10,114 nt of DNA from a virus (Duplodnaviria > Heunggongvirae > Uroviricota > Caudoviricetes): the IMG/VR virus record IMGVR_UViG_2690316097_000011; one strand, 5' to 3'. The notes under the pieces are model-generated. The model did no database searches. It worked only from the letters and a program-made list of their open reading frames with translations, and was not told the origin of the DNA. Each line of letters starts with the position of its first letter. Position 1 is the stretch's first letter. Made by a program: the position numbers and the translations under genes. This document shows positions 1-10,114 of the stretch, in pieces.

Positions 1-54
1 GAGCTGCATGACAAAGTCATCGGGCATTATCTGAACATAAAACACTACCAATAA
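1..54 (+). CDS. insB: IS1 transposase InsB, C-terminal fragment (partial CDS, 5' end outside window)
   Basis: Frame 1 translates to ELHDKVIGHYLNIKHYQ followed by TAA at 52-54, the known C-terminus of IS1 InsB. Confidence 0.8.
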   Translation, partial: ELHDKVIGHYLNIKHYQ

Positions 55-69
55 GTTGGAGTCATTACC
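1..69 (+). mobile_element. IS1 right end (3' terminus with terminal inverted repeat); element continues upstream of the window
   Basis: Positions 1-69 match the canonical IS1 3' end, finishing ...AACATAAAACACTA(C)CAATAAGTTGGAGTCATTACC at 69. One C/T difference from the IS1 sequence as I recall it. Confidence 0.9.
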
Positions 70-201
70 AAACGGTTGAAATGTATGCCGCTACTTACGG
101 GTCCTGTAATCCTCTGAATAAACCAGAGGGAAAAGATGATTTCGACAAAATTTACCGCTTCTTGGAGGACCGCTATATCAAAAGCTTAGAGGACGCAGGG
201 A

Positions 202-579
202 TCAAATCCCCAGTGAAGTCACCATTGTCCTGAGAACTTGCAGAACGTCATGATCATAACTTCCATCCAAACCGCGACGGCGAATTGCTTCTCGTATTAC
301 CGGAAGCAGTTCGCTGGAAATCTCGGTGCATATTTCACCTGATAATACGCTTGGCTCAAGTGAGAATATTGGTGAACTTACGGTCTTGGTCTCGACAGTT
401 TCAGAGTCAGTGCCAACATTATAAAGCTCAACGAAAGCGGTCTTGATTTTCCGGGCCAGATCTTTTGCTGGCTCGCTTGCAATATCTTTCCCGATTTCTC
501 GCAGCACAGAATGCAATGTATGAGCTGCTGTTTTCTGTACATCAGACGGTAAATCTTTAAATTCCATCGTCAGCCTCAT
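202..579 (-). CDS. hypothetical protein, distal gene of the leftward operon
   Basis: 125 aa ORF. Its ATG at 579 overlaps the upstream stop (TGATG). An in-frame ATG at 567 with a GAGG Shine-Dalgarno 6 nt upstream is an alternative start (121 aa). No recognisable domain by eye. Confidence 0.55.
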   Translation of the reverse strand: MRLTMEFKDLPSDVQKTAAHTLHSVLREIGKDIASEPAKDLARKIKTAFVELYNVGTDSETVETKTVSSPIFSLEPSVLSGEICTEISSELLPVIREAIRRRGLDGSYDHDVLQVLRTMVTSLGI

Positions 580-731
580 CAGTCAGTGTTTCTGGCTAAC
601 CAGCAACGCGCGCCAGATTCGGTTTTAAACGTTTTGCTTTTGGTATACGTCATGGCGGTAAACGTTCCATCCTGGTTAGGGAACACGCCGCACACCAGAG
701 ATTCGTTGTTGCCAAGATCGATAGTATCCAT
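579..731 (-). CDS. small hypothetical protein (50 aa from the ATG at 731; ORF could extend to 785 giving 68 aa)
   Basis: The ATG at 731 has a GAGG Shine-Dalgarno (aaatGAGGtcagcATG on the minus strand); the ATG at 785 has none. Stop overlaps the next gene start. First gene downstream of the OL-like operators. Confidence 0.45.
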   Translation of the reverse strand: MDTIDLGNNESLVCGVFPNQDGTFTAMTYTKSKTFKTESGARCWLARNTD

Positions 732-912
732 GCTGACCTCATTTCCCCTTAACGCCGGGGTGGCGGAACAAAAAACCTGCTGCATAGTTAAAGATTGAAC
801 CCTGCCGTCATGTTCTTACGCCTCGGGCTGGCTACTTAACCCCTGACCACTGTCTGGTAACTCGAAGTATTGCCCTGCATTCTGTGGGGCGGGGTGGGTT
901 GACGCCTGAAAC

Positions 913-954
913 AATAGCATCATTATTTTTTTTGATGTAAATAGCATCGCTATT
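913..954. promoter_or_regulatory. OL-like operator pair: two 15 bp palindromes AATAGC-N3-GCTATT
   Basis: AATAGCATCATTATT at 913-927 and the perfect palindrome AATAGCATCGCTATT at 940-954, centres 27 bp apart. The same half-site recurs between the repressor and cro-like genes. Lies between the terminator of the repressor operon and the leftward genes. Confidence 0.5.
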
Positions 955-970
955 GTTTTTTGTTGGGGCA

Positions 971-994
971 AGAAAAAACCACCCTAAGGTGGTT
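971..994 (-). terminator. Rho-independent terminator of the repressor-antitoxin-toxin operon
   Basis: 7 bp perfect stem (977-983 pairs with 988-994, AACCACC/GGTGGTT) with a 4 nt loop, followed on the minus-strand transcript by UUUUCUU. Sits 17 nt after the toxin stop codon. Confidence 0.6.
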
Positions 995-1010
995 CTGTCG
1001 GCGGGAATAA

Positions 1011-1301
1011 TTAACTGTTTTTGCCTGGATACTGTCTTCGAGAATGCACAATATTTACTACTTCTATGCTTGATGCTGTTACTCGGTAAAGGATGATGTA
1101 GTTAGGATGAGTTACAATTTCACGAAGACCAAGAACTCGCTCGCTTGGAGGATACAGGTAAGGATGCTCTGTGAGCGGCAAAACGGATGTTTCAATTCGA
1201 ATTTTCATTCTGCGTGCTGCCGCGGGATTTTCTTTAGCTATGTAGGCTACGATCTGGCGCAAATCATCACGAGCAGATGGTAGCCATAAAACGGGTAACA
1301 T
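1011..1301 (-). CDS. parE: ParE/RelE-family type II toxin
   Basis: 96 aa. Translation MLPVLWLPSARDDLRQIVAYIAKENP...IILYRV has the ParE/RelE-like length and motif pattern. Start overlaps the upstream gene stop (TAATG), typical of toxin-antitoxin pairs. Confidence 0.85.
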   Translation of the reverse strand: MLPVLWLPSARDDLRQIVAYIAKENPAAARRMKIRIETSVLPLTEHPYLYPPSERVLGLREIVTHPNYIILYRVTASSIEVVNIVHSRRQYPGKNS

Positions 1302-1495
1302 TATTCACCTCTGTGAGTTGCAGCAGCAATTTGGGCAATAATTTGTTCCATTTCCGCCATTACCTCATCATGCGGAATCGCCGGGCGGGGATCCGCGAGG
1401 CTTGCTGCTACTTTGGCCCGCAGCCATTCGTTGTAACTATTTTCTTGCTCAACTGTCTCAAATTCTGAAACCATTGGGGAAAGGACTGTACTCAT
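1301..1495 (-). CDS. paaA: PaaA-like antitoxin (ParE-associated antitoxin)
   Basis: 64 aa. Motif LSPMVSEFETVEQENSYNEWLRAKVAASLADPRPAIPHDEV resembles, from memory, PaaA2 antitoxins of the prophage-borne paaR2-paaA2-parE2 systems of E. coli O157. Good Shine-Dalgarno (AGGAGA, 8 nt spacer). Immediately upstream of the toxin. Confidence 0.75.
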   Translation of the reverse strand: MSTVLSPMVSEFETVEQENSYNEWLRAKVAASLADPRPAIPHDEVMAEMEQIIAQIAAATHRGE

Positions 1496-1514
1496 TTTAC
1501 ATATCTCCTCTGAT

Positions 1515-2015
1515 TTAGGCGCGACGGCCTTTTTGTGCAGCTAACCACCGCGCAACCGTACGATCCATTGATTCTTTTTTATCTTTCATCTCCTGAAGCA
1601 TGTGTTCTTGATCTTCTTTCGGAAAAGCTCTGAACGTATGGATTAAATCTCGTTCCATCGGCTCTACGGCAAACGGTAGTTCATCCTCTGTTTGTTCTGT
1701 GTCTGCTGGTAATGCGACTATGTTATCTTGCTGTGGTTCTCGACAATACATCCTTGCAATTTGCAGCAAATCTACCATGTCTGGCCTGATTGACTCAGGG
1801 GGAACTTTCAGTAAGCCAGCAAACTTTAGAACAGCCTCAAGGTTTAGTGGGGTTTGACCATTTAGGTAGTGACTTACCGCCCCTTGTGTTGAAAACCCCA
1901 TAATTTCCGCCGCACGTTCCTGAGTCAATCCCAACTGAGATTTCTTTGCCATCCAGATTTCTTTCAGTCTTCTGGCGGCGTTGAGGTCGGTGTCTGACAA
2001 TGATTTTCTTTTCAT
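1515..2015 (-). CDS. lambda-CI-like prophage repressor (HTH, PaaR-like), without an S24 peptidase domain
   Basis: From the ATG at 2015: MKRKSLSDTDLNAARRLKEIWMAKKSQLGLTQERAAEIMGFSTQGAVSHYLNG... aligns by eye with the lambda CI N-terminal DNA-binding domain. The C-terminal 80 aa show no Ser/Lys autocleavage motifs. The ORF can extend to a GTG at 2045. Stop lies 18 nt before the antitoxin start. Confidence 0.85.
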   Translation of the reverse strand: MKRKSLSDTDLNAARRLKEIWMAKKSQLGLTQERAAEIMGFSTQGAVSHYLNGQTPLNLEAVLKFAGLLKVPPESIRPDMVDLLQIARMYCREPQQDNIVALPADTEQTEDELPFAVEPMERDLIHTFRAFPKEDQEHMLQEMKDKKESMDRTVARWLAAQKGRRA

Positions 2016-2027
2016 ACATCCAATTCT

Positions 2028-2090
2028 AATAAGATTGCTAATCACTTTGAAATAGCATCACTATTTACTTTTAAAAATAACAGTGCTATT
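2028..2090. promoter_or_regulatory. OR-like operator region in the divergent repressor/cro-like intergenic space
   Basis: AATAGCATCACTATT at 2051-2065 and AATAACAGTGCTATT at 2076-2090, plus a weaker AATAAGATTGCTAAT at 2028-2042. Centres are 23-25 bp apart, echoing lambda OR1-3. Same half-site as the left operator pair. Confidence 0.55.
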
Positions 2091-2126
2091 AATTATGCAT
2101 TGGTAACACATCACATAGGGCGGATT

Positions 2127-2390
2127 ATGAATCTTGGAGAATATTTGCATCATTTTCATATAACCCAGAGTTCATTTGCTGAGATTGTTGGCGCATCCCA
2201 AGGGATGGTCAGCCACGTTATAACGGGGCGTGCAAAACTTACAGGAGAAAAAATATTACGTTGGTGTGAAGCAACGGGATGGGTGGTGACCCCACATGAG
2301 ATTGACAGTAAAACCTACCCCAACCCAACTGACGGCTTGCCTGCTGAGTTTCAGGCTAACACACAACCATCGGCGGGGGTTGATTCATGA
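2127..2390 (+). CDS. Cro-like / YdaS-family HTH regulator
   Basis: 87 aa from the ATG at 2127 (ORF opens at a TTG at 2100). HTH-like segment QSSFAEIVGASQGMVSHVITG. Divergent from the repressor across the operator region. Stop overlaps the next start (ATGA). Confidence 0.75.
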   Translation: MNLGEYLHHFHITQSSFAEIVGASQGMVSHVITGRAKLTGEKILRWCEATGWVVTPHEIDSKTYPNPTDGLPAEFQANTQPSAGVDS

Positions 2391-2812
2391 AAATCAAGCA
2401 TGAACACATCCGCATGGCGATGAAAGCCTGGGCGCATCCGGACGGTGAAAAAGTTCCGGCAGCTGAAATAACCAGGGTTTATTTCGAACTGGGAATGACG
2501 TTTCCGGTTCTGCATAACGACAGCAAGCACAACACGCTTTATCTCAACACCCAAAAGATTTTCCGTTGGCTGGATAAAGACACCCCTGACGCTGTTGAAA
2601 AAATTCAGGCGTTGTTACCTGCGATCGAAAGGGCAATGCCACCTCCGCTGGTGGCTCGAATGCGCAGCCACAGTTCAGCTTATTTTCGGGAACTGGTGGA
2701 GACGCATGAACGACTGGTGAGAGACGCTGATGATTTTGTCGCAGTGGCAATCGCCGGTTTCAATCAGATGAACCGTGGTGGCCCGGCAGGAAATGCTGTG
2801 GCAGTACATTGA
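2387..2812 (+). CDS. CII-like / YdaT-family protein
   Basis: 141 aa beginning MKIKHEHI and ending ...AVH, as YdaT-family proteins do. Occupies the cII position between the cro-like gene and the replication genes. Confidence 0.75.
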   Translation: MKIKHEHIRMAMKAWAHPDGEKVPAAEITRVYFELGMTFPVLHNDSKHNTLYLNTQKIFRWLDKDTPDAVEKIQALLPAIERAMPPPLVARMRSHSSAYFRELVETHERLVRDADDFVAVAIAGFNQMNRGGPAGNAVAVH

Positions 2813-2883
2813 CTGACAATAGCCATATCGAATCGCTCCCGGCAACTCGTGAGTAAAAAGATTCGGTATCAGAAGAGGTGAGT

Positions 2884-3948
2884 ATGGCTAACGCCTGGCT
2901 CAGATTATGGCATGACATGCCAAATGACCCTAAGTGGCGAACAATTGCCAGGGTGTCAGGGCAGCCAATTGCAACAGTGATGGCAGTGTATATCCACCTC
3001 CTGGTGAGCGCGTCACGAAATGTCACGCGAGGTCACATTGATGTCACGACAGAAGATTTGGCAAGTGCGCTCGACGTGACAGAAGAGGTAATTGATTCAA
3101 TTTTGCAGACGATGCAGGGGCGGGTACTTGATGGTGATTTAATCACTGGATGGGAAAAACGCCAGGTGCTTAAAGAGGACAACGGCAATATTTCGCAAAC
3201 CGCAAAATCTCCTGCAGAGCGCAAGAGGGCGCAGCGAGAGAGGGAAAGAAAGCGGGAACAAAATGGCGATTGTCACGGCGCGTCACGAAATGTCACGCAC
3301 ATGTCACGACGAGTCACGACAGATACAGATAAAGATACAGATAAAGAAGATCAAAACACTATGGTCCATGGCGTAAAAAACGCCACGAACCAGGCAGGGG
3401 ATGTTCAGACCGTCAATCCTGGTCAGCCAGCAGGCTCGACACCGGAAGCCGATTCAGCGTATGCGCTGAAAGCCGATTCGGGCGCTGTGCAGCAGGTGAT
3501 GACCGCAAGGCCGGAGCAATCACTCCAACTGCAGCAGCCTGAAGCCGATTCCGCCATTCAGCGGGAAGCCGATCGGGTAGCCCCGGAAAACACCGGGCAG
3601 CCTGTGGGACGAGTGGATTATCCGGATGTGTTCGAACAGGTCTGGCGGGAATACCCGTTGCGTGCCGGGGCAAACCCGAAGAAATCCGCATTCAGTGCCT
3701 GGAAGGCCAGATTGCGCGAGGGGGTGCCACCAGAGACCATGCTGGATGGTGTGAGGCGTTACGCGAGATACCTGGCGGCGACCGGGAAAGCGGGAACGGA
3801 ATTTGTTCAGCGAGCGACGACGTTTTTTGGGCCGGACCGGAATTTTGAAAACCCCTGGTTGCTCCCGGTAAGCGGCACGAACAACCAGCGTTGTGTGAAT
3901 CATATTTCTGAACCGGATACCGAAATTCCGCCGGGATTCAGGGGGTGA
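2884..3948 (+). CDS. replication initiator / replisome organiser (lambda O-like, YdaU/DUF1376-type N-terminus)
   Basis: 354 aa from the ATG at 2884 (GAGG Shine-Dalgarno 5 nt upstream; GTG at 2878 possible). N-terminus MANAWLRLWHDMPNDPKWR, a low-complexity charged linker, and a C-terminal domain. Sits directly upstream of the DnaC-like gene and contains the iteron arrays. Confidence 0.8.
   Translation: MANAWLRLWHDMPNDPKWRTIARVSGQPIATVMAVYIHLLVSASRNVTRGHIDVTTEDLASALDVTEEVIDSILQTMQGRVLDGDLITGWEKRQVLKEDNGNISQTAKSPAERKRAQRERERKREQNGDCHGASRNVTHMSRRVTTDTDKDTDKEDQNTMVHGVKNATNQAGDVQTVNPGQPAGSTPEADSAYALKADSGAVQQVMTARPEQSLQLQQPEADSAIQREADRVAPENTGQPVGRVDYPDVFEQVWREYPLRAGANPKKSAFSAWKARLREGVPPETMLDGVRRYARYLAATGKAGTEFVQRATTFFGPDRNFENPWLLPVSGTNNQRCVNHISEPDTEIPPGFRG
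3009..3048. repeat. iteron cluster 1 (GTCACG core with 10-11 bp phasing) inside the initiator gene
   Basis: GTCACG at 3012, 3022 and 3043, GTCAC at 3032, and an inverted CGTGAC at 3075. A 20 bp block CGCGTCACGAAATGTCACGC is repeated at 3279-3298. Confidence 0.55.
3271..3346. repeat. iteron cluster 2 plus adjacent GATACAGATAAA tandem repeat; putative phage origin
   Basis: GTCACG at 3272, 3282, 3292, 3303 and 3313 (spacing 10, 10, 11, 10 bp), immediately followed by AGATACAGATAAAGATACAGATAAAG at 3321-3346. Confidence 0.6.
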
Positions 3949-3954
3949 TGTGGC

Positions 3955-4701
3955 ATGAAAAACATTGCGGCAGCCGGGGTTCTTGAACGTATTCACAGAC
4001 TTGCACCACAGGGGGCGGTTCCACCGTACCGGACGGTGGAGGAGTGGCGGGAATGGCAACTTGCTGAAGGACGAAAACGCAGCGAGGAGATTAACCGCCA
4101 GAATCGCCAGTTGCGGGTGGAAAAAATCCTGAATCGTTCGGGCATCCAGCCTCTGCACAGCAAATGCTCGTTTGCGAATTATCAGGTGCAGAACGACGGG
4201 CAAAAATACGCGCTGAGCCAGGCCAAATCCATAGCTGACGAACTGATGACCGGGTGCACGAATTTTGTGTTCAGCGGTAAAACCGGCACCGGGAAAAATC
4301 ACCTTGCAGCGGCGATGGGTAACCGGCTGATGGCGAAGGGGCGCAGCGTGATTATCGTCACCGAGTCTGATGTCATGAGCGTGTTGCATGACAGCTACGA
4401 CAACGGCAAATCCGGTGAAAAATTTTTACAGGAGCTTTGCGGGGTTGATTTGCTGGTCCTGGATGAAATAGGCATTCAGCGGGAGACGAAAAACGAGCAG
4501 GTGGTATTGCACCAGATAATTGATCGCCGGACAGCATCACTGTGCAGTGTCGGGATGTTAACAAACCTGAATCATGCCGCAATGAGCACGCTTCTTGGTG
4601 AGAGGATTATGGACCGCATGACCATGAACGGTTGTCGGTGGGTGACGTTTAACTGGGATAGCTGGCGTTCAAATGTCAGCTTTCCGGGAGTTGTGAAGTA
4701 A
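3955..4701 (+). CDS. DnaC-like helicase loader (IstB-like AAA+ ATPase, lambda P analogue)
   Basis: 248 aa. Walker A GKTGTGKNHLAAAMG and Walker B LLVLDEIG. Shine-Dalgarno AGGGGG upstream. Confidence 0.9.
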   Translation: MKNIAAAGVLERIHRLAPQGAVPPYRTVEEWREWQLAEGRKRSEEINRQNRQLRVEKILNRSGIQPLHSKCSFANYQVQNDGQKYALSQAKSIADELMTGCTNFVFSGKTGTGKNHLAAAMGNRLMAKGRSVIIVTESDVMSVLHDSYDNGKSGEKFLQELCGVDLLVLDEIGIQRETKNEQVVLHQIIDRRTASLCSVGMLTNLNHAAMSTLLGERIMDRMTMNGCRWVTFNWDSWRSNVSFPGVVK

Positions 4702-4722
4702 TTTTTGTTGGAGGATGTTTTA

Positions 4723-5448
4723 ATGGAAACTGTATTTGACGCACTGAAAGCACTGAAAAGAGCCTCTTCACATGTGGTGGCGTCCCGCCTTGGAATCAGC
4801 CGTGAAGATGCGGTCAACGAACTGTGGAAACTGAAGCGCCGTGGTGAAGCGGATAACAAGGGTTCGATGTGGTGGCTGATTCAGGCTGGTGAAAGTGAAC
4901 CAGTGTCACCGGTACCGAAAGTGACAGCGCAAATGCTGACTGAGGCGATTGAACAACATGGCCCACAAACGGCGGATGAGCTGGCACTGATGTTCGGGAT
5001 TACCTCCCGCCGGGCGAATTCATCGCTGGCCATGGCAATCAGCAAAGGGCGTCTGATTCGCGTGAATCAGGGCGGTAAATTTCGGTACTGCATACCGGGC
5101 GCTGATTTACCGGCAGAGCCGAAAGCCGCATCCATAGCGGAAACGGATGGTAAAGTCTTTCCTCAGCCAGCAGGTGTTGCGTTACCGGTACAGGAAGCTG
5201 CAACACAGGAAGAAATTAAAACAGAAACTGTGGCGGACATTGTGCAGTCGTTGCCATCGTTCACCGAAACGCAAGCGGATGACCTGGTTTTACCATCGCT
5301 GCATATGGCAAACCGCGAACTGCGTCGGGCGAAAAGTCATGTCCAGAAGTGGGAGCGTGTCTGCGCCGCGTTGCGGGAGCTGAACAAGCACCGGGATATT
5401 GTTCGACAGATTGTCGATTCCTCCGGTCGTATTGTGTCGGAAAAGTGA
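4723..5448 (+). CDS. hypothetical phage protein with two winged-helix-like segments
   Basis: 241 aa from the ATG at 4723 (GGAGG Shine-Dalgarno, 8 nt spacer; ORF opens at a TTG at 4705). No catalytic motifs recognised. Confidence 0.7.
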
Positions 5449-5463
5449 TTGCCGGGGGCGCTT

Positions 5464-5705
5464 ATGGCAAAAGTATTTACACAGGAAGAGCGGGAAAAAA
5501 TTAAGGGGCAGGTTGTTGAACTCGTACGCCAGAGTGGGCGCGAGACGTTACGACAACTGGAAGCTAAAACCGGGGCGACAAGATATTTAATAAGCGTTCT
5601 CGCCAGAGAGCTGGTTGCCAGTGGGGATGTATACAACTCTGGCTACGGGTTATTCCCGTCTGAACAGGCTCGTAAGGACTGGCAAAACGCCCGCAAAAAA
5701 CTCTC
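5464..5705 (+). pseudogene. 5' portion of a phage gene interrupted by an IS3-family remnant
   Basis: Starts MAKVFTQEEREKIKGQVVELVRQSGRETLRQLEAKTGATRY... and reads into IS-derived sequence after ...ARKKLS at about 5705. A paralogous 3' portion resumes at 6002. Confidence 0.6.
5497..5705. repeat. about 209 bp imperfect direct repeat, copy 1
   Basis: Aligns by eye with 6002-6210 at roughly 90% identity (the last 110 bp nearly identical). Both copies end ...CGCAAAAAACTCTC. Confidence 0.8.
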
Positions 5706-6001
5706 GAACGGTGGCTGAACTGGAATCTGAAATTCTGCAACTGCGTAAGGCGTTAAATGAAGCTCGCCTTGAGCGAGATATATTAAAAAAAGAACAAATG
5801 GTAGTGTCCGCTATTGCCAGTACACCTCAAAGAGATAATCGGGAAGCGCCTTCACTGATCGAAAGTTGATTTTCAGGAACCGTTCTGACAGCTTCGGCTT
5901 TGAACTCTTTAGAGTAACGTTGGGTTTTTCTGCTCATTATTAGCTCCTTCTGATGCCATTCTATTTCAGGAAGGAGTGTCCGTTAAACTCAGGCTACCTC
6001 A
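5706..6001. mobile_element. scrambled IS3-family (IS600-like) remnant made of two oppositely oriented fragments
   Basis: Minus strand 6001 to 5830: terminal repeat TGAGGTAGCCTGAGTTTAACGGACACTCC, then a Shine-Dalgarno and ATG at 5937 encoding MSRKTQRYSKEFKAEAVRTVPENQLSISEGASRLSL (OrfA N-terminus), then stop. Plus strand 5706-5793 encodes RTVAELESEILQLRKALNEARLERDILKK (OrfA leucine zipper), followed by a second terminal-repeat-like end at 5800-5829. Confidence 0.75.
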
Positions 6002-6210
6002 AAAATTAAAGGGCAGGTTGTTGAACTTGTACGTCTGAGCGGTCGCGAGACGTTGCGGCAACTGGAAGCCAAGACAGGTGCGACAAGATATCTGATGAGT
6101 GTTCTCGCCAGAGAGCTGGTTGCCAGTGGCGATGTATACAACTCTGGTTACGGGTTATTCCCGTCTGAACAGGCGCGTAAGGACTGGCAAAACGCCCGCA
6201 AAAAACTCTC
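6002..6210. repeat. about 209 bp imperfect direct repeat, copy 2
   Basis: Paralogous to 5497-5705. Begins immediately after the IS terminal repeat at 6001. Confidence 0.8.
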
Positions 6211-6391
6211 AAGGGCAAATCTGAAGAAACCATCTGTGGTTGATCCTGACCTTATCTGGTCATTACCAGACGGAGAAATACGCCGCTACGACAGACATCA
6301 GAACATAATCTGTCGCGAGTGCCGGAAGAGTGAAGTTATGCAGCGTGTACCGGCTTTCTATCAGGGTGATTTTCAGGAGGCGGTACTGTGA
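6002..6391 (+). pseudogene. 3' portion of the IS-interrupted phage gene (no 5' end or start codon)
   Basis: In-frame continuation KIKGQVVELVRLSGRETLRQLEAKTGATRY...ICRECRKSEVMQRVPAFYQGDFQEAVL. An upstream in-frame TAA at 5984-5986 lies inside IS sequence. Confidence 0.6.
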
Positions 6392-6448
6392 GTGAAATTA
6401 GCTATCAGGCTTCAATTACCGCTGGCATTCGCATCAAAGGAGAGGAGC

Positions 6449-6805
6449 ATGGAAATAAAACCAGAAGATGAGTTAAGCAATATTGTTTTATTTCCGGTAA
6501 AAGAGGATAACCCTCGTAATCAGGTTAATTTTCTTTATGAGCCATCGGAAAGACCATATTGCCATCACGCTTCTGTCCGGGTTGACGAAAAAGAGCGTCA
6601 GGTCCGCTGTAAAATTTGCGGTGCAGTTGTGGAGCCATTTGACTGGATGCTCTCTGTGGCGAAAAGAGAAACCAGACTGGCAGATGATGTAAGGCTCTTG
6701 CGCCAGGAGGAGCGGGAAAGGCGAAAAAATATAGAAAAGCTAATCCAGATTGAGCGTAATGCGAAAGCGCGGATACGCAGGGTGACAAAATATAGCCCCG
6801 AATAA
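6449..6805 (+). CDS. hypothetical small protein with a putative zinc-ribbon (C-H-H ... C-x2-C)
   Basis: 118 aa from the ATG at 6449, with a strong Shine-Dalgarno AGGAGAGGAG. Cys/His cluster YCHH...CKICG. Charged C-terminal tail. Confidence 0.6.
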   Translation: MEIKPEDELSNIVLFPVKEDNPRNQVNFLYEPSERPYCHHASVRVDEKERQVRCKICGAVVEPFDWMLSVAKRETRLADDVRLLRQEERERRKNIEKLIQIERNAKARIRRVTKYSPE

Positions 6806-7019
6806 TCAAGGTTATTTCTGGAAGTCAAGTCGTGAGTGATGAGGACTAACAAATACGGTGAACTCGATAAAGAGATTCAGGACGAACTGGAGGCCAGGAA
6901 TGATTGACAAATCACCAAGTGAGTTCAGCTACAAAGATTTATTGTCATAACGGGTTATGAGATCGACTTGGTGCGTGATATTCTTCGGGCCAGTTTGCTA
7001 TGCGCCACCATGAGATGTT

Positions 7020-8852
7020 ATGGCCCGCATGTTTGATACATTAGGATTTTACATTATGAATGTGCAACATTTTGATTTTTTTACAGATAATGAGTTTTCT
7101 AATCTGGAAAGATATCAAACTTGTAAAGCCATGGCCAAAGGTTATGCGGGCAATTACAAAACCGGGCAGTCAAGGTTGATGCATGCCCGCTCATACTGCT
7201 TCAGCATCGTAGCTGCATATTGGGATACCCTTGCAAAAAAGCAAAAAAGCAGCATTAAAATGAGGGCAGTACCGCACACTGTTTACATAGAAGACATTCC
7301 ATGTGATGCACGCGAGCTCGCTGAACGAACAGGTGAGCTTATTGCTCAATTTCCGGCGGAGGACGCTGGATATCTGATTGGGTCAATTTATACGGTAATG
7401 CTGCCATCCGCTTACCGTTCGGAATTGGGGGCTTACTATACCCCCCCACCTTTGGTAGCGCGTCTCTTGGACCTGGCTGAAAAGTCTGGTGTTGATTTTT
7501 CTCATGCATCGGTTATTGATCCTGCGTGTGGTGGCGGTGCATTTTTGGCACCAGTAGCCATTCGAATGTTAAAAAAAGACAAGGGGTCTTCCCCTGAATG
7601 GATGTTGAGGAGAATCAGTCGTCGTTTAAAGGGGATAGAAATCGATCCATTTGCGGCTTGGATGAGTTTGGTATTGCTCGAATCTGTACTAATGCCACTA
7701 TGTGTAAAGGTAAAACGTAGATTGCCTGAAGATACAATTATTGTTGCTGATGCGCTTCAGCAAGATAAATTTTCTGGTTATGATCTTGTGGTAGGGAATC
7801 CGCCTTACGGACGTGTCACTCTCGATATTAAAACGAGAGAAAAATATTCTCGTTCGTTATTTGGTCATGCAAATCTATATGGATTGTTCACCGACTTAGC
7901 TGTTCGCATGGTTAAAGAGAAAACAGGAGTTATTGCATTTCTTACGCCAACTTCTTTTCTTGGTGGGCAGTATTTCACCGCGCTGCGAACCCTTTTGACC
8001 GAAAAAACTACTCCGTATGCCCTTGATTTCGTCACTGACAGGGATGGGGTCTTTGACGATGTTCTCCAGGAAACAATGTTGACAGCATTCAAGGCGGGAG
8101 AACATAAAGTTCGGGCCCAGGTATCCTCACTTGTCCCTAAGGGGTTGAACAAAGCAAAAATTGAGAAAATAGGTAATGTTGATATAGAAAAAGGTGGAGC
8201 AACGTGGCTTTTGCCACGCGTTAAAGATGATGCCTGTTTTCTTAATGTATTAAAACAGATGTCTACGCGTTTAGCTGATCTGGGATACTCAGTCTCTACA
8301 GGTCAGTTAGTCTGGAATCGATTTAAGTCGCAGTTGCGTACGACGAAAGGAAAAAATAGCTACCCATTAGTCTGGGCGGAATCAATAACTTCAGCTGGTT
8401 TTCGTTTTAGTGCAGACAGAAAAAATCATGTTCCCTATATCGATATAACCCCACAACAGGGTTTCCTTGTGACAAAATCTGAATGTGTGCTTGTTCAGCG
8501 GACAACATCGAAGGAACAGGACAGAAGGATTTTAGCGGCAATTTTACCTCAGGGATTTATAGATGAAACTGGTGGCGTAGTAGTTGAAAACCATATTAAT
8601 ATTGTATATTCAAACGGATTGTTCTCTGCGGTTCGCCCTGATGTTATTGATATGCTACTTAATTCGCATGTTGTCGATCGGGCGTTCAGGTGTATAAGCG
8701 GAAGTGTTGCTGTTTCGGCCTATGAATTGAATTCAATCCCGTTGCCTTCTCTGGAGCAGGTGATGGAGATTCAATCGTTAATTGATGCTGGCGTCCACAG
8801 ACGGATTATTGAGAGAACTATCGCTGGTTTCTATGGAGTGATGATTGCATGA
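7020..8852 (+). CDS. gamma-class N6-adenine DNA methyltransferase (Eco57I/PstI-like family)
   Basis: 610 aa. Motif X (GAYYTPPPLV), motif I (VIDPACGGGAFL) and motif IV (VVGNPPYGR) occur in the gamma-class order, with a roughly 300 aa C-terminal region as a probable target-recognition domain. Alternative ATGs at 7029 and 7056. About 27% GC at the 5' end. Confidence 0.9.
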   Translation: MARMFDTLGFYIMNVQHFDFFTDNEFSNLERYQTCKAMAKGYAGNYKTGQSRLMHARSYCFSIVAAYWDTLAKKQKSSIKMRAVPHTVYIEDIPCDARELAERTGELIAQFPAEDAGYLIGSIYTVMLPSAYRSELGAYYTPPPLVARLLDLAEKSGVDFSHASVIDPACGGGAFLAPVAIRMLKKDKGSSPEWMLRRISRRLKGIEIDPFAAWMSLVLLESVLMPLCVKVKRRLPEDTIIVADALQQDKFSGYDLVVGNPPYGRVTLDIKTREKYSRSLFGHANLYGLFTDLAVRMVKEKTGVIAFLTPTSFLGGQYFTALRTLLTEKTTPYALDFVTDRDGVFDDVLQETMLTAFKAGEHKVRAQVSSLVPKGLNKAKIEKIGNVDIEKGGATWLLPRVKDDACFLNVLKQMSTRLADLGYSVSTGQLVWNRFKSQLRTTKGKNSYPLVWAESITSAGFRFSADRKNHVPYIDITPQQGFLVTKSECVLVQRTTSKEQDRRILAAILPQGFIDETGGVVVENHINIVYSNGLFSAVRPDVIDMLLNSHVVDRAFRCISGSVAVSAYELNSIPLPSLEQVMEIQSLIDAGVHRRIIERTIAGFYGVMIA

Positions 8853-9931
8853 ATCTGCCTGTTGTTCCCCCATTGAATGTTATCCGGGAAAGATTACAAT
8901 TAATTTTCCCTGAAGGGACTGAGAATCGTGGATATTTAATTCGGGAAATAGCTGCAAAAACAATTTTTGTCATGTTTTATGCTGGTGCGGTTGAGGGGCT
9001 GGGGCGATGGATAAGGCCCAGCCAGGTTGTAAGTATGGGAGATTCGCAGGCTGCTCTTACTGATGATGCGTCCAGAGAAAGCTGGGTAAAGATGACTTTC
9101 TCTAAACAAAAGATAAGGCCTGCTGATGCATGGTATGCGGAAAATACGCGTGAGCCAATACGTGATGAAACTATAAAAAATGGCCTAATACCTTGCAATG
9201 CAATTGTTGAGCGTAAAGGTATACCCACCACATCCTCTCGTCCTCGTTACAGTTTGAATCGCTCTTTTGCAGCACTCTTTGATGCCGGGCTTGAAGGAGA
9301 TTCGCTGCTGAGTGCAATAAGTTCCTGGCAAGAAAATCATTTGAACAAAGCCGCTCTTGCTAGGTTGCGTTTATTGAAATCAGGGGCAGTGATTGCTGCT
9401 GATGCCGTAGTCGTCACTTTCCCAAATGGAGAGAAGAGAACTTTAGCTCCGGGCCCGTCAAGTACAATAGCTAAGGCCGTCATCGAAGTTTTTGCTCCTA
9501 ATTTTCTTAAGAATCCAACTGTGCTCTGGTTGTCTGAATCCGGGAATAAAGTTGTTGCTCAGGATGATGTATTGGCAAAAGCATTGGGGCTGAATATTGA
9601 TGCCTCAAAAGCACTTCCAGATATTATTTTGATTGATTTGGGAGAGGACCGAACGGGTTCGGACATGCTTGTAGTTTTCACTGAAGTAGTTGCGACAGAT
9701 GGGCCTATAAACAGGGAACGAAAAGTTACTCTCACTCATTTGGCTATTGACGCTGGGTTCAGCGAGAAAAATCTTGCATTCCTTACGGCATTTATGGACA
9801 GAAGTGCTCTGCCTTTTAAAAAGGCAATACCAGAATTGGCGTGGGGATCTTATGCATGGTTTGCTTCTGAACCGGAGCACTTAATTGATCTTCGGGATGG
9901 TTATCCGGTAAAGATCAGCCAGAGAAAATGA
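8849..9931 (+). CDS. putative restriction endonuclease partner (possibly BsuBI/PstI family); function unverified
   Basis: 360 aa, translationally coupled to the methyltransferase (ATGA overlap at 8849-8852). Size and two-domain layout fit BsuBI/PstI-type endonucleases. A candidate nuclease core PDIILIDLGED...LVVFTEVVATDGPINRERK is only weakly PD-(D/E)xK-like. Confidence 0.55.
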   Translation: MNLPVVPPLNVIRERLQLIFPEGTENRGYLIREIAAKTIFVMFYAGAVEGLGRWIRPSQVVSMGDSQAALTDDASRESWVKMTFSKQKIRPADAWYAENTREPIRDETIKNGLIPCNAIVERKGIPTTSSRPRYSLNRSFAALFDAGLEGDSLLSAISSWQENHLNKAALARLRLLKSGAVIAADAVVVTFPNGEKRTLAPGPSSTIAKAVIEVFAPNFLKNPTVLWLSESGNKVVAQDDVLAKALGLNIDASKALPDIILIDLGEDRTGSDMLVVFTEVVATDGPINRERKVTLTHLAIDAGFSEKNLAFLTAFMDRSALPFKKAIPELAWGSYAWFASEPEHLIDLRDGYPVKISQRK

Positions 9932-10083
9932 CCAAAGTTTGATATCCGCCACGCCCTGAAGGATGGGGGTTTTACGGTGCACTGGATAAAAAATCGGTTT
10001 CATAGATTTGCCCACCGTGGTATACGCCTGCGATAAAAACTTTATTGTCATCAACGGCAAAAGCAATAATTGTTCTGTGGCGG

Positions 10084-10114
10084 GGTGATGCTGCCAACTT
10101 ACTGATTTAGTGTA
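10084..10114 (+). mobile_element. IS1 left end (terminal inverted repeat), same orientation as the IS1 at 1-69; continues beyond the window
   Basis: GGTGATGCTGCCAACTTACTGATTTAGTGTA is the canonical IS1 5' terminus. Confidence 0.9.

What the first reader, a model, noticed from the sequence alone, without database searches (positions are those of the whole stretch)
1515..2015. Repressor has a lambda-CI-like DNA-binding domain but no recognisable autocleavage domain
The N-terminal 80 aa align by eye with lambda CI. The C-terminal region has no Ala-Gly/Cys-Gly cleavage site or Ser-Lys dyad context. Induction is therefore probably not by RecA-stimulated self-cleavage and may depend on an antirepressor encoded elsewhere, or the element may be uninducible.
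Basis: partly seen in the sequence, partly recalled or inferred. Interest (0 to 1): 0.4.

Follow-up and report, generated by a model that had tools for sequence, protein, structure and literature searches.

The report
Non-cleavable lambda-like prophage repressor
This gene encodes the master repressor of a decayed lambda-like prophage in Shigella sonnei; it has lambda CI's DNA-binding head but a short helical tail of the known PaaR2/DicA type instead of the self-cleaving protease domain, a well-documented kind of repressor that is ordinary in E. coli and Shigella prophages.

Summary
The minus-strand ORF 2015..1515 encodes a 166-aa protein. Residues 2-81 are homologous to the lambda CI N-terminal domain (phmmer E 2.9e-9; model TM 0.81-0.93). 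No Peptidase_S24 domain is detectable even at E<=10. Lambda CI and a 52%-identical Stx-phage CI score E~1e-28 with the same tool.

Residues 118-166 form a helix-turn-long-helix. This module is homologous to the C-terminal domains of PaaR2 (hhalign 99%, E 1e-18) and DicA (96%, E 1.5e-9). Both are characterised non-cleavable prophage repressors.

The gene heads a paaR-paaA-parE operon, divergent from ydaS/ydaT (Cro/CII analogues). It is flanked by two clusters of AATAGC-N3-GCTATT operators (OR, OL). This is the published CP-933P immunity architecture with a swapped DNA-binding domain.

The element is an IS1-bounded prophage remnant at the Qin locus, with no lysis, structural or integrase genes called in the 20-kb loci, so it cannot be induced as a phage. 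I found no LexA box and no Rem, GftA or DinI homologue nearby. Derepression is most likely by a Cro-type bistable switch, or by an antirepressor acting in trans.

Verdict: new member of a known kind; low interest.

The parts
1515..2015 (-). Immunity repressor gene (166 aa plus stop). CI analogue and PaaR-position gene.
   Evidence: ORF list. The identical protein is found in S. sonnei genomes. pN/pS is 0.17.
1746..2015 (-). N-terminal domain, aa 1-90. Lambda-CI-type five-helix HTH domain with a basic N-terminal arm (MKRKSL).
   Evidence: phmmer against PDB 1lmb, E 2.9e-9. Pfam HTH_3. AF2 pLDDT 84-92. Foldseek TM 0.81-0.93 to the lambda CI NTD. 52% identity to the NTD of a cleavable Stx-phage CI.
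1665..1745 (-). Linker, aa 91-117. Acidic, predicted disordered, and the least conserved part of the protein.
   Evidence: pLDDT below 50 for aa 92-112. Variable columns in alignment A1. pN/pS 0.26. No Ala-Gly or Cys-Gly.
1518..1664 (-). C-terminal domain, aa 118-166. PaaR2/DicA-type helix-turn-long-helix module; inferred oligomerisation domain.
   Evidence: BLASTP to PaaR2 (Sakai ECs_2279): 52% identity over 44 aa, E 5e-15. hhalign: PaaR2 99.1%, DicA 96.4%, lambda CI 0.3%. NCBIfam DicA NF007257, E 7e-8. Helices at 119-129 and 133-165.
2028..2090 (.). OR region with three operator sites: 2076-2090 AATAACAGTGCTATT, 2051-2065 AATAGCATCACTATT and the weaker 2028-2042 AATAAGATTGCTAAT. Centres are 25 and 23 bp apart.
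   Evidence: Pattern search: 4 sites with <=2 mismatches in the window against 0.43 expected, all of them in OR or OL. The same motif lies at the same two places next to the 79%-identical homologue in E. coli O145:H28.
2023..2051 (-). PRM-like promoter, TTCAAA-17-TAGAAT. The -10 ends 8 nt before the ATG, so a leaderless mRNA is plausible.
   Evidence: Consensus scan. Leaderless translation has been shown for paaR2 and is known for lambda cI (PMC8630535). It is an inference here.
913..954 (.). OL region with two operator sites, 913-927 AATAGCATCATTATT and 940-954 AATAGCATCGCTATT. It lies between parE and the ydfA-like gene.
   Evidence: conserved in L011 at 20335 and 20360.
1301..1495 (-). paaA-like antitoxin gene (64 aa), co-directional with the repressor gene and starting 19 nt downstream of it.
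   Evidence: Pfam PaaA2, E 3e-23. PDB 3zbe PaaA2, E 1.4e-23.
1011..1301 (-). parE-like toxin gene (96 aa).
   Evidence: Pfam ParE_toxin, E 1.8e-17. PDB 5cw7 ParE2, E 6.7e-37.
2127..2390 (+). ydaS-like Cro analogue (87 aa), divergent from the repressor gene.
   Evidence: PHROG 35, E 8e-17. Weak HTH_3 hit. It occupies the ydaS position of CP-933P (PMC8630535).
2387..2812 (+). ydaT-like CII analogue (141 aa).
   Evidence: Pfam YdaT_toxin. PHROG 163, CII-like, E 3e-40. PDB 8bt1 (CP-933P YdaT), E 3e-70.
2380..2397 (.). YdaT high-affinity operator TTGATTCATGAAAATCAA at the ydaS/ydaT junction.
   Evidence: Exact match to the published TTGATT-N6-AATCAA site at the same position (PMC9986795).

Best explanation
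The ORF encodes the CI-equivalent immunity repressor of a decayed lambdoid prophage at the Qin locus of Shigella sonnei.

Domain structure. It is a natural domain chimera of three parts:
- a lambda-CI-type N-terminal DNA-binding domain;
- a roughly 25-aa disordered acidic linker;
- a 48-aa helical-hairpin C-terminal domain of the PaaR2/DicA type, in place of the S24 autopeptidase/oligomerisation domain of lambda CI.

What is shown:
- the domain homologies and the absence of S24;
- operon linkage to a paaA-parE toxin-antitoxin pair, which sits where lambda has rexAB;
- divergent ydaS (Cro-like) and ydaT (CII-like) genes;
- two clusters of AATAGC-N3-GCTATT palindromes at the OR and OL positions, conserved next to an orthologue.

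What is inferred:
- The NTD binds these operators as a dimer.
- The helical CTD supplies the dimer and higher-order contacts. PaaR2, which shares only this domain, is an octamer in solution.
- These contacts give cooperative occupancy and possibly OL-OR looping. This would repress PR (ydaS-ydaT-replication genes) and PL, and autoregulate a probably leaderless PRM transcript that also carries paaA-parE.

Consequence. With no S24 domain and no cleavage site in the linker, the protein cannot respond to RecA* by self-cleavage. Loss of repression would occur in one of two ways. The first is stochastic or physiological flipping of the repressor/YdaS bistable switch, as shown for PaaR2/YdaS and DicA/DicC. 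The second is a small antirepressor supplied in trans, as shown for DicA-Rem and the Gifsy repressors. In this remnant derepression cannot yield phage. The repressor is probably retained to silence the replication and PL genes, and the toxin-antitoxin pair makes the immunity region addictive.
For: Lambda-type NTD.

No S24, with positive controls. No cleavage dipeptide outside the NTD.

CTD homologous to PaaR2 and DicA. The sequence of PaaR2 was verified from Sakai Sp12. It starts with the MQKKE N-terminus reported in PMC8630535.

Same gene order as CP-933P, namely parE-paaA-repressor | ydaS-ydaT-O-like-DnaC-like.

Operators: 4 sites against 0.43 expected, all in OR or OL, and conserved beside the O145:H28 orthologue. 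The YdaT operator is conserved exactly. A PRM-like promoter abuts the ATG.

Remnant context in six S. sonnei genomes: IS1 on both sides and no late, int or xis genes called in the 20-kb loci. The window is 99.9% identical to those genomes over positions 1-5707 and 99.4% over 6001-10114.

Purifying selection.

Literature:
- PaaR2 represses ydaST, octamerises, lacks the peptidase motif, and the locus is bistable (PMC8630535).
- DicA lacks the Ala-Gly bond, is antagonised by Rem, and forms a bistable switch with DicC (PMC10448788).
- Peptidase-less repressors are common in O157 prophages, and that fits their lack of induction by mitomycin C (PMC2669165).
Against: There is no experimental datum for this particular protein. 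Operator binding, oligomeric state, a leaderless start and insensitivity to DNA damage are all inferred.

The role of the CTD in oligomerisation is deduced only from its being the sole region shared with octameric PaaR2. No solved structure of this module was found.

The operator motif differs from the one published for PaaR2. This is expected for a different NTD, but it means the PaaR2 footprints do not transfer.

The PR and PL promoters were identified only by eye and fall below the scan threshold.

No antirepressor candidate was found, so that branch of the mechanism has no direct support here.
Confidence: 0.8

Rival explanations
1. Antirepressor-dependent, SOS-coupled repressor of the Gifsy type. 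A small LexA-controlled antirepressor encoded elsewhere binds the protein and strips it from DNA. This would be the main physiological induction route.
For: It is a short, non-cleavable repressor with a lambda-NTD-like head, which is the class defined by Lemire et al. (PMC3121763). Its CTD is homologous to that of DicA, and DicA is inactivated by the antirepressor Rem (PMC10448788). Sp12, which carries PaaR2, has a dinI homologue at its far end, split by IS629. In the Gifsy prophages the antirepressor gene lies directly downstream of a dinI homologue in the same LexA-regulated operon.
Against: There is no Rem, GftA-candidate or DinI homologue in the window, in +-10 kb of six S. sonnei genomes, or in the 45 kb fetched around the O145:H28 orthologue, which covers that prophage from its integrase end to the major capsid gene but not its tail end. 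LexA-box-like matches occur at chance level and none is a good box. Similarity to GtgR itself is weak (hhalign 17%). It is not known which repressor domain Rem or GfoA binds.
Confidence: 0.3
2. It is primarily the dedicated transcriptional regulator (third component) of a paaR-paaA-parE toxin-antitoxin module, not a phage immunity repressor. Its resemblance to CI would then be incidental.
For: It is co-operonic with paaA-parE at 19-nt spacing. PaaR2 was first described in this way (Hallez 2010, as cited in PMC8630535).
Against: The operators lie at both the OR and OL positions, flanking the operon, and face cro/cII/replication genes. The NTD is a bona fide lambda CI homologue. Jurenas et al. 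showed that PaaR2 primarily represses ydaST and that the toxin-antitoxin pair is embedded in the immunity circuit. The two roles are not exclusive.
Confidence: 0.15
3. It is a truncated or decayed remnant of an ordinary cleavable CI whose S24 domain was lost by deletion, and it is therefore non-functional.
For: The closest NTD relatives in the phage collection are full-length S24-bearing CIs. The host element is heavily decayed.
Against: The 166-aa length is conserved across S. sonnei, E. coli and E. albertii at 75-100% identity. pN/pS is 0.17, and 0.20 in the CTD. The CTD is a distinct conserved module shared with PaaR2, DicA, and 132-aa and 244-aa proteins. An orthologue sits in a much more complete prophage.
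Confidence: 0.03

Closest known systems
PaaR2 of cryptic prophage CP-933P / Sp12, E. coli O157:H7 (Hallez 2010; Jurenas 2021, PMC8630535)
   Same: It holds the same position: first gene of the paaR-paaA-parE operon, divergent from ydaS-ydaT, with OR- and OL-like operator clusters. The C-terminal domain is homologous (52% identity over 44 aa; hhalign 99%). It has no S24 domain. The promoter abuts the start codon, so a leaderless transcript is likely.
   Different: The N-terminal DNA-binding domains are unrelated in sequence: PaaR2 has 123 aa and starts MQKKE, whereas this protein has 166 aa with a lambda-CI-type NTD. The operator motifs differ (AATAGC-N3-GCTATT against the GTTTAGTAA repeats reported for PaaR2). 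This protein has a longer acidic linker. PaaA and ParE are diverged homologues, not identical proteins.
DicA, repressor of cryptic prophage Qin, E. coli K-12
   Same: Same chromosomal locus type: the S. sonnei remnant lies beside ydfA-like, dicB and ydfE genes. DicA is also a short non-cleavable CI analogue. The C-terminal helical module is homologous (NCBIfam DicA E 7e-8; hhalign 96%).
   Different: DicA's HTH domain is a different XRE type. DicA is followed by ydfABC-dicF-dicB, not by a toxin-antitoxin pair. DicA has a known antirepressor (Rem), and no homologue of it was found here.
Lambda CI, and the closer Stx-phage CI of Escherichia phage Lyz12581Vzw
   Same: The N-terminal domain is homologous, including the basic N-terminal arm (39% identity to lambda, 52% to the Stx-phage CI). 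The tripartite OR has 23-25 bp spacing. Acidic residues E33 and E37 align with lambda E34 and D38 in the alignment; that lambda E34/D38 form CI's positive-control patch is from my own knowledge, not tested.
   Different: The whole S24 autopeptidase/oligomerisation domain and the Ala-Gly cleavage site are absent. The recognition-helix residues differ, and so does the operator sequence.
Gifsy prophage repressors GfoR/GfhR/GtgR (Lemire 2011, PMC3121763)
   Same: These are short lambdoid repressors that are not cleaved on induction. The published concept is that such proteins are inactivated by antirepressors.
   Different: Sequence similarity to GtgR is marginal and confined to the LLxxFxxLPE motif (hhalign 17%). 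No LexA-controlled dinI-antirepressor module was found near this gene.

Membership tests
LexA/lambda-CI family of RecA-stimulated self-cleaving repressors (Peptidase S24) | N-terminal HTH DNA-binding domain of the CI type | tested here: met
LexA/lambda-CI family of RecA-stimulated self-cleaving repressors (Peptidase S24) | C-terminal Peptidase_S24 domain (PF00717) | tested here: not met
   No hit at E<=1 for the whole protein or at E<=10 for the last 81 aa. The controls, lambda CI and the Stx-phage CI, scored E~1e-28. The predicted CTD is alpha-helical, and Foldseek gave no S24-fold hit.
LexA/lambda-CI family of RecA-stimulated self-cleaving repressors (Peptidase S24) | Ala-Gly or Cys-Gly scissile bond in the inter-domain linker, and a Ser/Lys catalytic dyad | tested here: not met
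   The only Ala-Gly is at aa 66-67, inside NTD helix 4. There is none in aa 81-166, and only a single Ser (S149) in the C-terminal half.
LexA/lambda-CI family of RecA-stimulated self-cleaving repressors (Peptidase S24) | Cleavage after DNA damage in vivo | not testable with these tools
   This needs a western blot after mitomycin C treatment.
PaaR-type regulators of three-component paaR-paaA-parE modules in lambdoid immunity regions | First gene of an operon with the PaaA antitoxin and ParE toxin, divergent from ydaS-ydaT | tested here: met
   The same layout is seen in Sakai Sp12.
PaaR-type regulators of three-component paaR-paaA-parE modules in lambdoid immunity regions | PaaR2-type C-terminal domain | tested here: met
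   BLASTP E 5e-15; hhalign 99.1%.
PaaR-type regulators of three-component paaR-paaA-parE modules in lambdoid immunity regions | [quoted passage not shown] | tested here: not met
   There is no NTD similarity to PaaR2. The operators here are AATAGC-N3-GCTATT.
PaaR-type regulators of three-component paaR-paaA-parE modules in lambdoid immunity regions | Octamer in solution; leaderless translation | not testable with these tools
   The only support is promoter geometry compatible with a leaderless mRNA.
DicA/Gifsy-type short repressors inactivated by small antirepressors | Short (about 120-170 aa) lambdoid immunity repressor without a peptidase domain | tested here: met
   the class definition is in PMC3121763 and PMC10448788.
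DicA/Gifsy-type short repressors inactivated by small antirepressors | Sequence homology to DicA or GtgR | tested here: inconclusive
   The CTD is homologous to that of DicA. The NTD is not of the DicA type. The link to GtgR is weak (17%).
DicA/Gifsy-type short repressors inactivated by small antirepressors | A cognate antirepressor gene (Rem, GfoA or GftA type), LexA-controlled in the Gifsy prophages | tested here: not met
   There is no homologue in the window, in L003-L008 or in L011, and no credible LexA box. Only local DNA was searched, so the rest of the genome is untested.

The most novel reading that the evidence does not exclude
The 48-aa PaaR2/DicA-type helical tail may be a portable regulatory handle. 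It is found behind at least three unrelated DNA-binding heads: the lambda-CI type here, the PaaR2 type, and the DicA/GtgR-like type in 132-aa proteins. It is also found behind a tandem of two heads in 244-aa proteins. If this tail, rather than the DNA-binding head, is the docking site of Rem/GfoA-type antirepressors, then one antirepressor could co-induce heteroimmune prophages whose repressors recognise different operators. That would give a structural basis for the prophage cross-talk seen in Salmonella.
Probability: 0.12. Interest if true: 0.5.

Novelty: new member of a known kind. Interest (0 to 1): 0.2.

Why it matters
It matters little beyond annotation. It shows that the 'helix-turn-helix domain-containing protein' present in many S. 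sonnei assemblies (6004 index blocks of the collection) is a CI-type immunity repressor of the non-cleavable PaaR2/DicA class, controlling a ParE toxin-antitoxin pair. It also documents domain shuffling: a cleavable-CI-type head joined to a non-cleavable tail. This is a neat illustration of how lambdoid phages exchange induction logic independently of operator specificity. For Shigella biology it predicts that the remnant's replication and PL genes, and the ParE toxin, are not coupled to the SOS response through repressor cleavage.

Tried and rejected
1. Hidden S24 domain. Rejected by Pfam at permissive thresholds with positive controls, by the predicted fold and by Foldseek.

2. The protein is PaaR2 itself. 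Rejected: true PaaR2 from Sakai Sp12 (123 aa, MQKKE...) shares only the last 44-50 aa.

3. The BLAST/tblastn alignment to lambda cI that appears to cover 95% of the query. Inspection showed that only the NTD part is meaningful, and hhalign of the CTD against lambda CI gave 0.3%.

4. Search for antirepressors. K-12 Rem, the Gifsy-2 ORF between dinI and STM1020 (a GftA candidate) and DinI were run by tblastn against the window, six S. sonnei loci, Sp11/Sp12 and the O145:H28 prophage. Nothing was found except the split dinI of Sp12. The 92-aa ORF at the rem position of the O145:H28 prophage is unrelated to Rem.

5. LexA boxes. There were only 1-mismatch matches to CTGT-N8-ACAG, at chance frequency.

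6. phmmer of the CTD against 1.84 billion representative proteins gave only 11 clusters, several of them fragments or coiled-coil noise. The module is narrow in distribution and no new architecture emerged.

7. A solved structure of the CTD. None was found by sequence or by fold.

8. The De Bruyn 2019 paper on the PaaR2 oligomer (PMC6486494) is not held.

Full report
**What is at the coordinates.** The finding's span, 1515-2015, is exactly one minus-strand ORF, with ATG at 2015 and stop at 1515-1517, encoding 166 aa. A longer reading from a GTG at 2045 is possible. Homologues from E. coli, E. albertii and Shigella sonnei are annotated at 166 aa, and the sequence begins MKRKSL, matching lambda CI's N-terminal arm. 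An identical protein is present in S. sonnei assemblies. The look-up by exact sequence found it in 6004 index blocks, including complete S. sonnei chromosomes. The window is 99.9% identical to those chromosomes over positions 1-5707 and 99.4% over 6001-10114.

**Check of the observation: N-terminal domain.**
- phmmer against all PDB sequences aligns aa 2-81 to lambda repressor residues 3-81 with E 2.9e-9.
- Pfam gives HTH_3 at aa 27-74.
- An AlphaFold2 model built on 29 homologues has five confident helices over aa 8-90.
- Its ten significant Foldseek hits in the PDB (E<=0.001) are all lambda CI N-terminal-domain structures, including a lambda-186 hybrid repressor. Against the NTD-only chains TM is 0.81-0.93, rmsd 1.1-2.1 A and identity 37-40%.
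- The nearest relative in the phage collection is the 239-aa CI of Stx phage Lyz12581Vzw, 52% identical over aa 2-90.

**Check of the observation: C-terminal half.**
- No Peptidase_S24 match appears at E<=1 for the whole protein or at E<=10 for the last 81 aa.
- In the same run, lambda CI and the Stx-phage CI gave S24 at E 6.8e-29 and 2.1e-28. The negative result is therefore not a sensitivity problem.
- The only Ala-Gly is at aa 66-67, inside helix 4 of the N-terminal domain. Residues 81-166 contain no Ala-Gly or Cys-Gly and only a single serine.

**What the C-terminus is.**
- The model shows a disordered acidic linker (aa 92-112, pLDDT below 50). It is followed by a short helix (119-129) and a long helix (133-165) at pLDDT 81-91.
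- This is not an orphan sequence. The NCBIfam model for DicA matches aa 106-162 against its own positions 74-130 of 135, with E 7e-8.
- I retrieved the real PaaR2 from E. coli O157:H7 Sakai prophage Sp12. It is ECs_2279, 123 aa, and begins MQKKE, as determined by N-terminal sequencing in Jurenas et al..
- PaaR2 shares 52% identity with the window protein over its last 44 residues (E 5e-15) and nothing elsewhere.
- A profile of the C-terminal 52 residues of the homologues gives hhalign probabilities of 99.1% for PaaR2, 96.4% for DicA, 17% for Gifsy-2 GtgR and 0.3% for lambda CI.
- The same tail occurs behind a different HTH in 132-aa enterobacterial proteins. It also occurs behind a tandem of the lambda-type head plus that second HTH in 244-aa proteins.
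- The protein is thus a chimera of a lambda-CI-type head and a PaaR2/DicA-type tail.
- It is under purifying selection: pN/pS is 0.17 overall and 0.20 in the tail, measured against the 79%-identical orthologue of E. coli O145:H28.

**Surroundings.**
- Immediately downstream on the same strand lie a PaaA2-family antitoxin at 1301-1495 (Pfam E 3e-23; PDB 3zbe E 1.4e-23) and a ParE toxin at 1011-1301 (PDB 5cw7 ParE2 E 6.7e-37).
- Divergently transcribed are a YdaS/Cro-like gene at 2127-2390 and a YdaT/CII-like gene at 2387-2812 (PDB 8bt1 E 3e-70). After them come O-like and DnaC-like replication genes.
- The published high-affinity YdaT site TTGATT-N6-AATCAA is present, exact, at the ydaS/ydaT junction, positions 2380-2397 (PMC9986795).
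- This is the immunity-region architecture described for CP-933P/Sp12 (PMC8630535).

**Operators and promoters.**
- A 15-bp palindrome, AATAGC-N3-GCTATT, occurs with <=2 mismatches four times in the 10-kb window, against 0.43 expected.
- Two copies lie between the repressor and ydaS genes (2051, 2076). Two lie between parE and the ydfA-like gene (913, 940).
- A weaker third OR copy at 2028 overlaps the -10 of a PRM-like promoter, TTCAAA-17-TAGAAT.
- The same motif sits at the same two places beside the O145:H28 orthologue. There the half-sites are conserved and the central bases vary.
- The -10 ends 8 nt before the ATG, so a leaderless transcript is plausible but unproven. Leaderless translation has been shown for paaR2 and is known for lambda cI.
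- The centre of the middle OR site lies 43 bp upstream of the ATG. In the alignment, residues E33 and E37 align with lambda E34 and D38.
- From my own knowledge, lambda OR2 is centred near -42 of PRM, and E34/D38 form CI's activation patch. This suggests lambda-like positive autoregulation. It is an inference only.
- The PR and PL promoters could be picked out only by eye.

**Genomic context and inducibility.**
- In six S. sonnei genomes the element lies between ydfI (mannitol dehydrogenase) and the dicB/ydfE-ynfEFGH region. That is the Qin locus. It is bounded and interrupted by IS1.
- It retains only the immunity and replication genes, a few small ORFs and a BsuBI/PstI-type restriction-modification pair.
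- Within the 20-kb loci no integrase, excisionase, Q, lysis or structural genes are called. It cannot be induced as a phage whatever happens to the repressor.
- Orthologues of the 166-aa repressor do occur in much more complete lambdoid prophages, for example in E. coli O145:H28 RM12761.

**How repression could be lifted.**
- The literature offers two demonstrated routes for the closest relatives.
- For PaaR2, the locus behaves as a bistable PaaR2/YdaS switch with stationary-phase switching. PaaR2 is stated to lack the peptidase motif and therefore not to be reactive to mitomycin C (PMC8630535).
- For DicA, the small protein Rem acts as an antirepressor, and a DicA/DicC bistable switch also operates (PMC10448788).
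- For the Gifsy phages, LexA-controlled antirepressors inactivate short, uncleaved repressors (PMC3121763).
- Asadulghani et al. reported that the repressors of four Sakai lambdoid prophages lack the peptidase domain. They noted that this fits the non-inducibility of three of them by mitomycin C (PMC2669165).
- I searched for antirepressor candidates (K-12 Rem, the Gifsy-2 ORF downstream of dinI, and DinI) by tblastn in the window, +-10 kb of six S. sonnei genomes, the Sakai Sp11/Sp12 stretches and the O145:H28 prophage. I found none, apart from a dinI homologue at the end of Sp12 that is split by IS629.
- LexA-box-like matches in the window are at chance level.
- I therefore rank the bistable-switch route as the most likely here. 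A trans-acting antirepressor remains possible but is unsupported.

**Comparison and novelty.**
- Peptidase-less lambdoid repressors are well known. Examples are DicA, RacR, PaaR2, the Gifsy repressors and those of Sakai Sp4/6/9/10.
- The paaR-paaA-parE / ydaS-ydaT circuit has been dissected experimentally.
- What is specific here is the domain combination: the head is homologous to those of cleavable CIs, and the tail is the PaaR2/DicA module. No record in the phage collection carries this 166-aa architecture. The best full-length-type hits are below 60% identity and are confined to the head. The tail alone hits only the PaaR2-like regulator of phage Evi.
- This makes it a new member of a known kind.

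**Limits.** Nothing here is experimental for this protein. The oligomerisation role of the tail rests on its being the only region shared with PaaR2, which is reported to be an octamer. No solved structure of the module was found. A single-sequence search of 1.84 billion representative proteins found only 11 clusters with the tail, so its distribution is narrow.

Noticed in passing
Proteins P0013-P0023 (alignment A1): These 240-255-aa relatives carry the lambda-CI-type head, then a second complete HTH domain like that of the 132-aa DicA/GtgR-like proteins, then the same PaaR2/DicA tail. They are tandem-HTH repressors. The window protein looks like this architecture minus the second HTH.
   Followed up: partly
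window 5496-6210: A 210-212-bp direct repeat (5496-5705 and 6001-6210, 91% identical) flanks about 293 bp of IS3-family-derived sequence (5708-6000). This splits the DUF977/Ren-like gene into two ORFs (5449-5718 and 6053-6391). Complete S. sonnei genomes have the gene intact, so this is a strain-specific rearrangement or an assembly artefact.
   Followed up: partly
window 2016-2045: An in-frame GTG at 2045 would add MISNLIRIGC. The distant 250-255-aa relatives P0020 and P0021 are annotated with a similar extension (MISKTIRMTT, MISNTIRMLD). This may simply reflect conserved promoter/operator DNA. It also recalls the N-terminally extended GfhR* form that accumulates on Gifsy-3 induction (PMC3121763).
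   Followed up: no
window 7020-9931: [quoted passage not shown] Together with ParE-PaaA this gives the remnant two addiction/defence modules.
   Followed up: no
window 1-75: The first about 70 bases match the end of IS1 copies that bound and interrupt the remnant in S. sonnei genomes.
   Followed up: partly
window 1301-1345 (PaaA C-terminus) and 1011-1301 (ParE): The antitoxin matches PaaA2 closely through ...PHDEV and then diverges completely (MAEMEQIIAQIAAATHRGE here, ERRMAERFAKMRKERSKQ in PaaA2). The toxin differs mainly in its N-terminal 45 residues. This is possibly co-variation of the toxin-antitoxin interface.
   Followed up: no
window 1518-1535 (last 6 codons of the repressor gene): The C-terminal tail QKGRRA is conserved in PaaR2 (QKCRRA), in the 132-aa family and in the 166-aa family. 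A basic C-terminal tail of this kind could be a protease degron or a DNA or protein contact. This is pure speculation.
   Followed up: no
L001 44157-45775 (E. coli O157:H7 Sakai, far end of prophage Sp12): The dinI homologue at the end of Sp12 is split by IS629. tblastn with Gifsy-2 DinI hits both sides of the insertion, at 44250-44372 and 45683-45775. In the Gifsy phages the LexA-controlled antirepressor gene follows dinI. In Sp12 the DNA downstream is occupied by further IS elements, so a former antirepressor for PaaR2 may have been lost.
   Followed up: partly
window 202-579 (minus strand) and 579-785 (minus strand): These are the first genes downstream of the OL operators, the position lambda's PL operon occupies. 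One is a YdfA-like DUF1391 protein. The other is a 125-aa protein of unknown function (PHROG 33007, E 5e-80).
   Followed up: no
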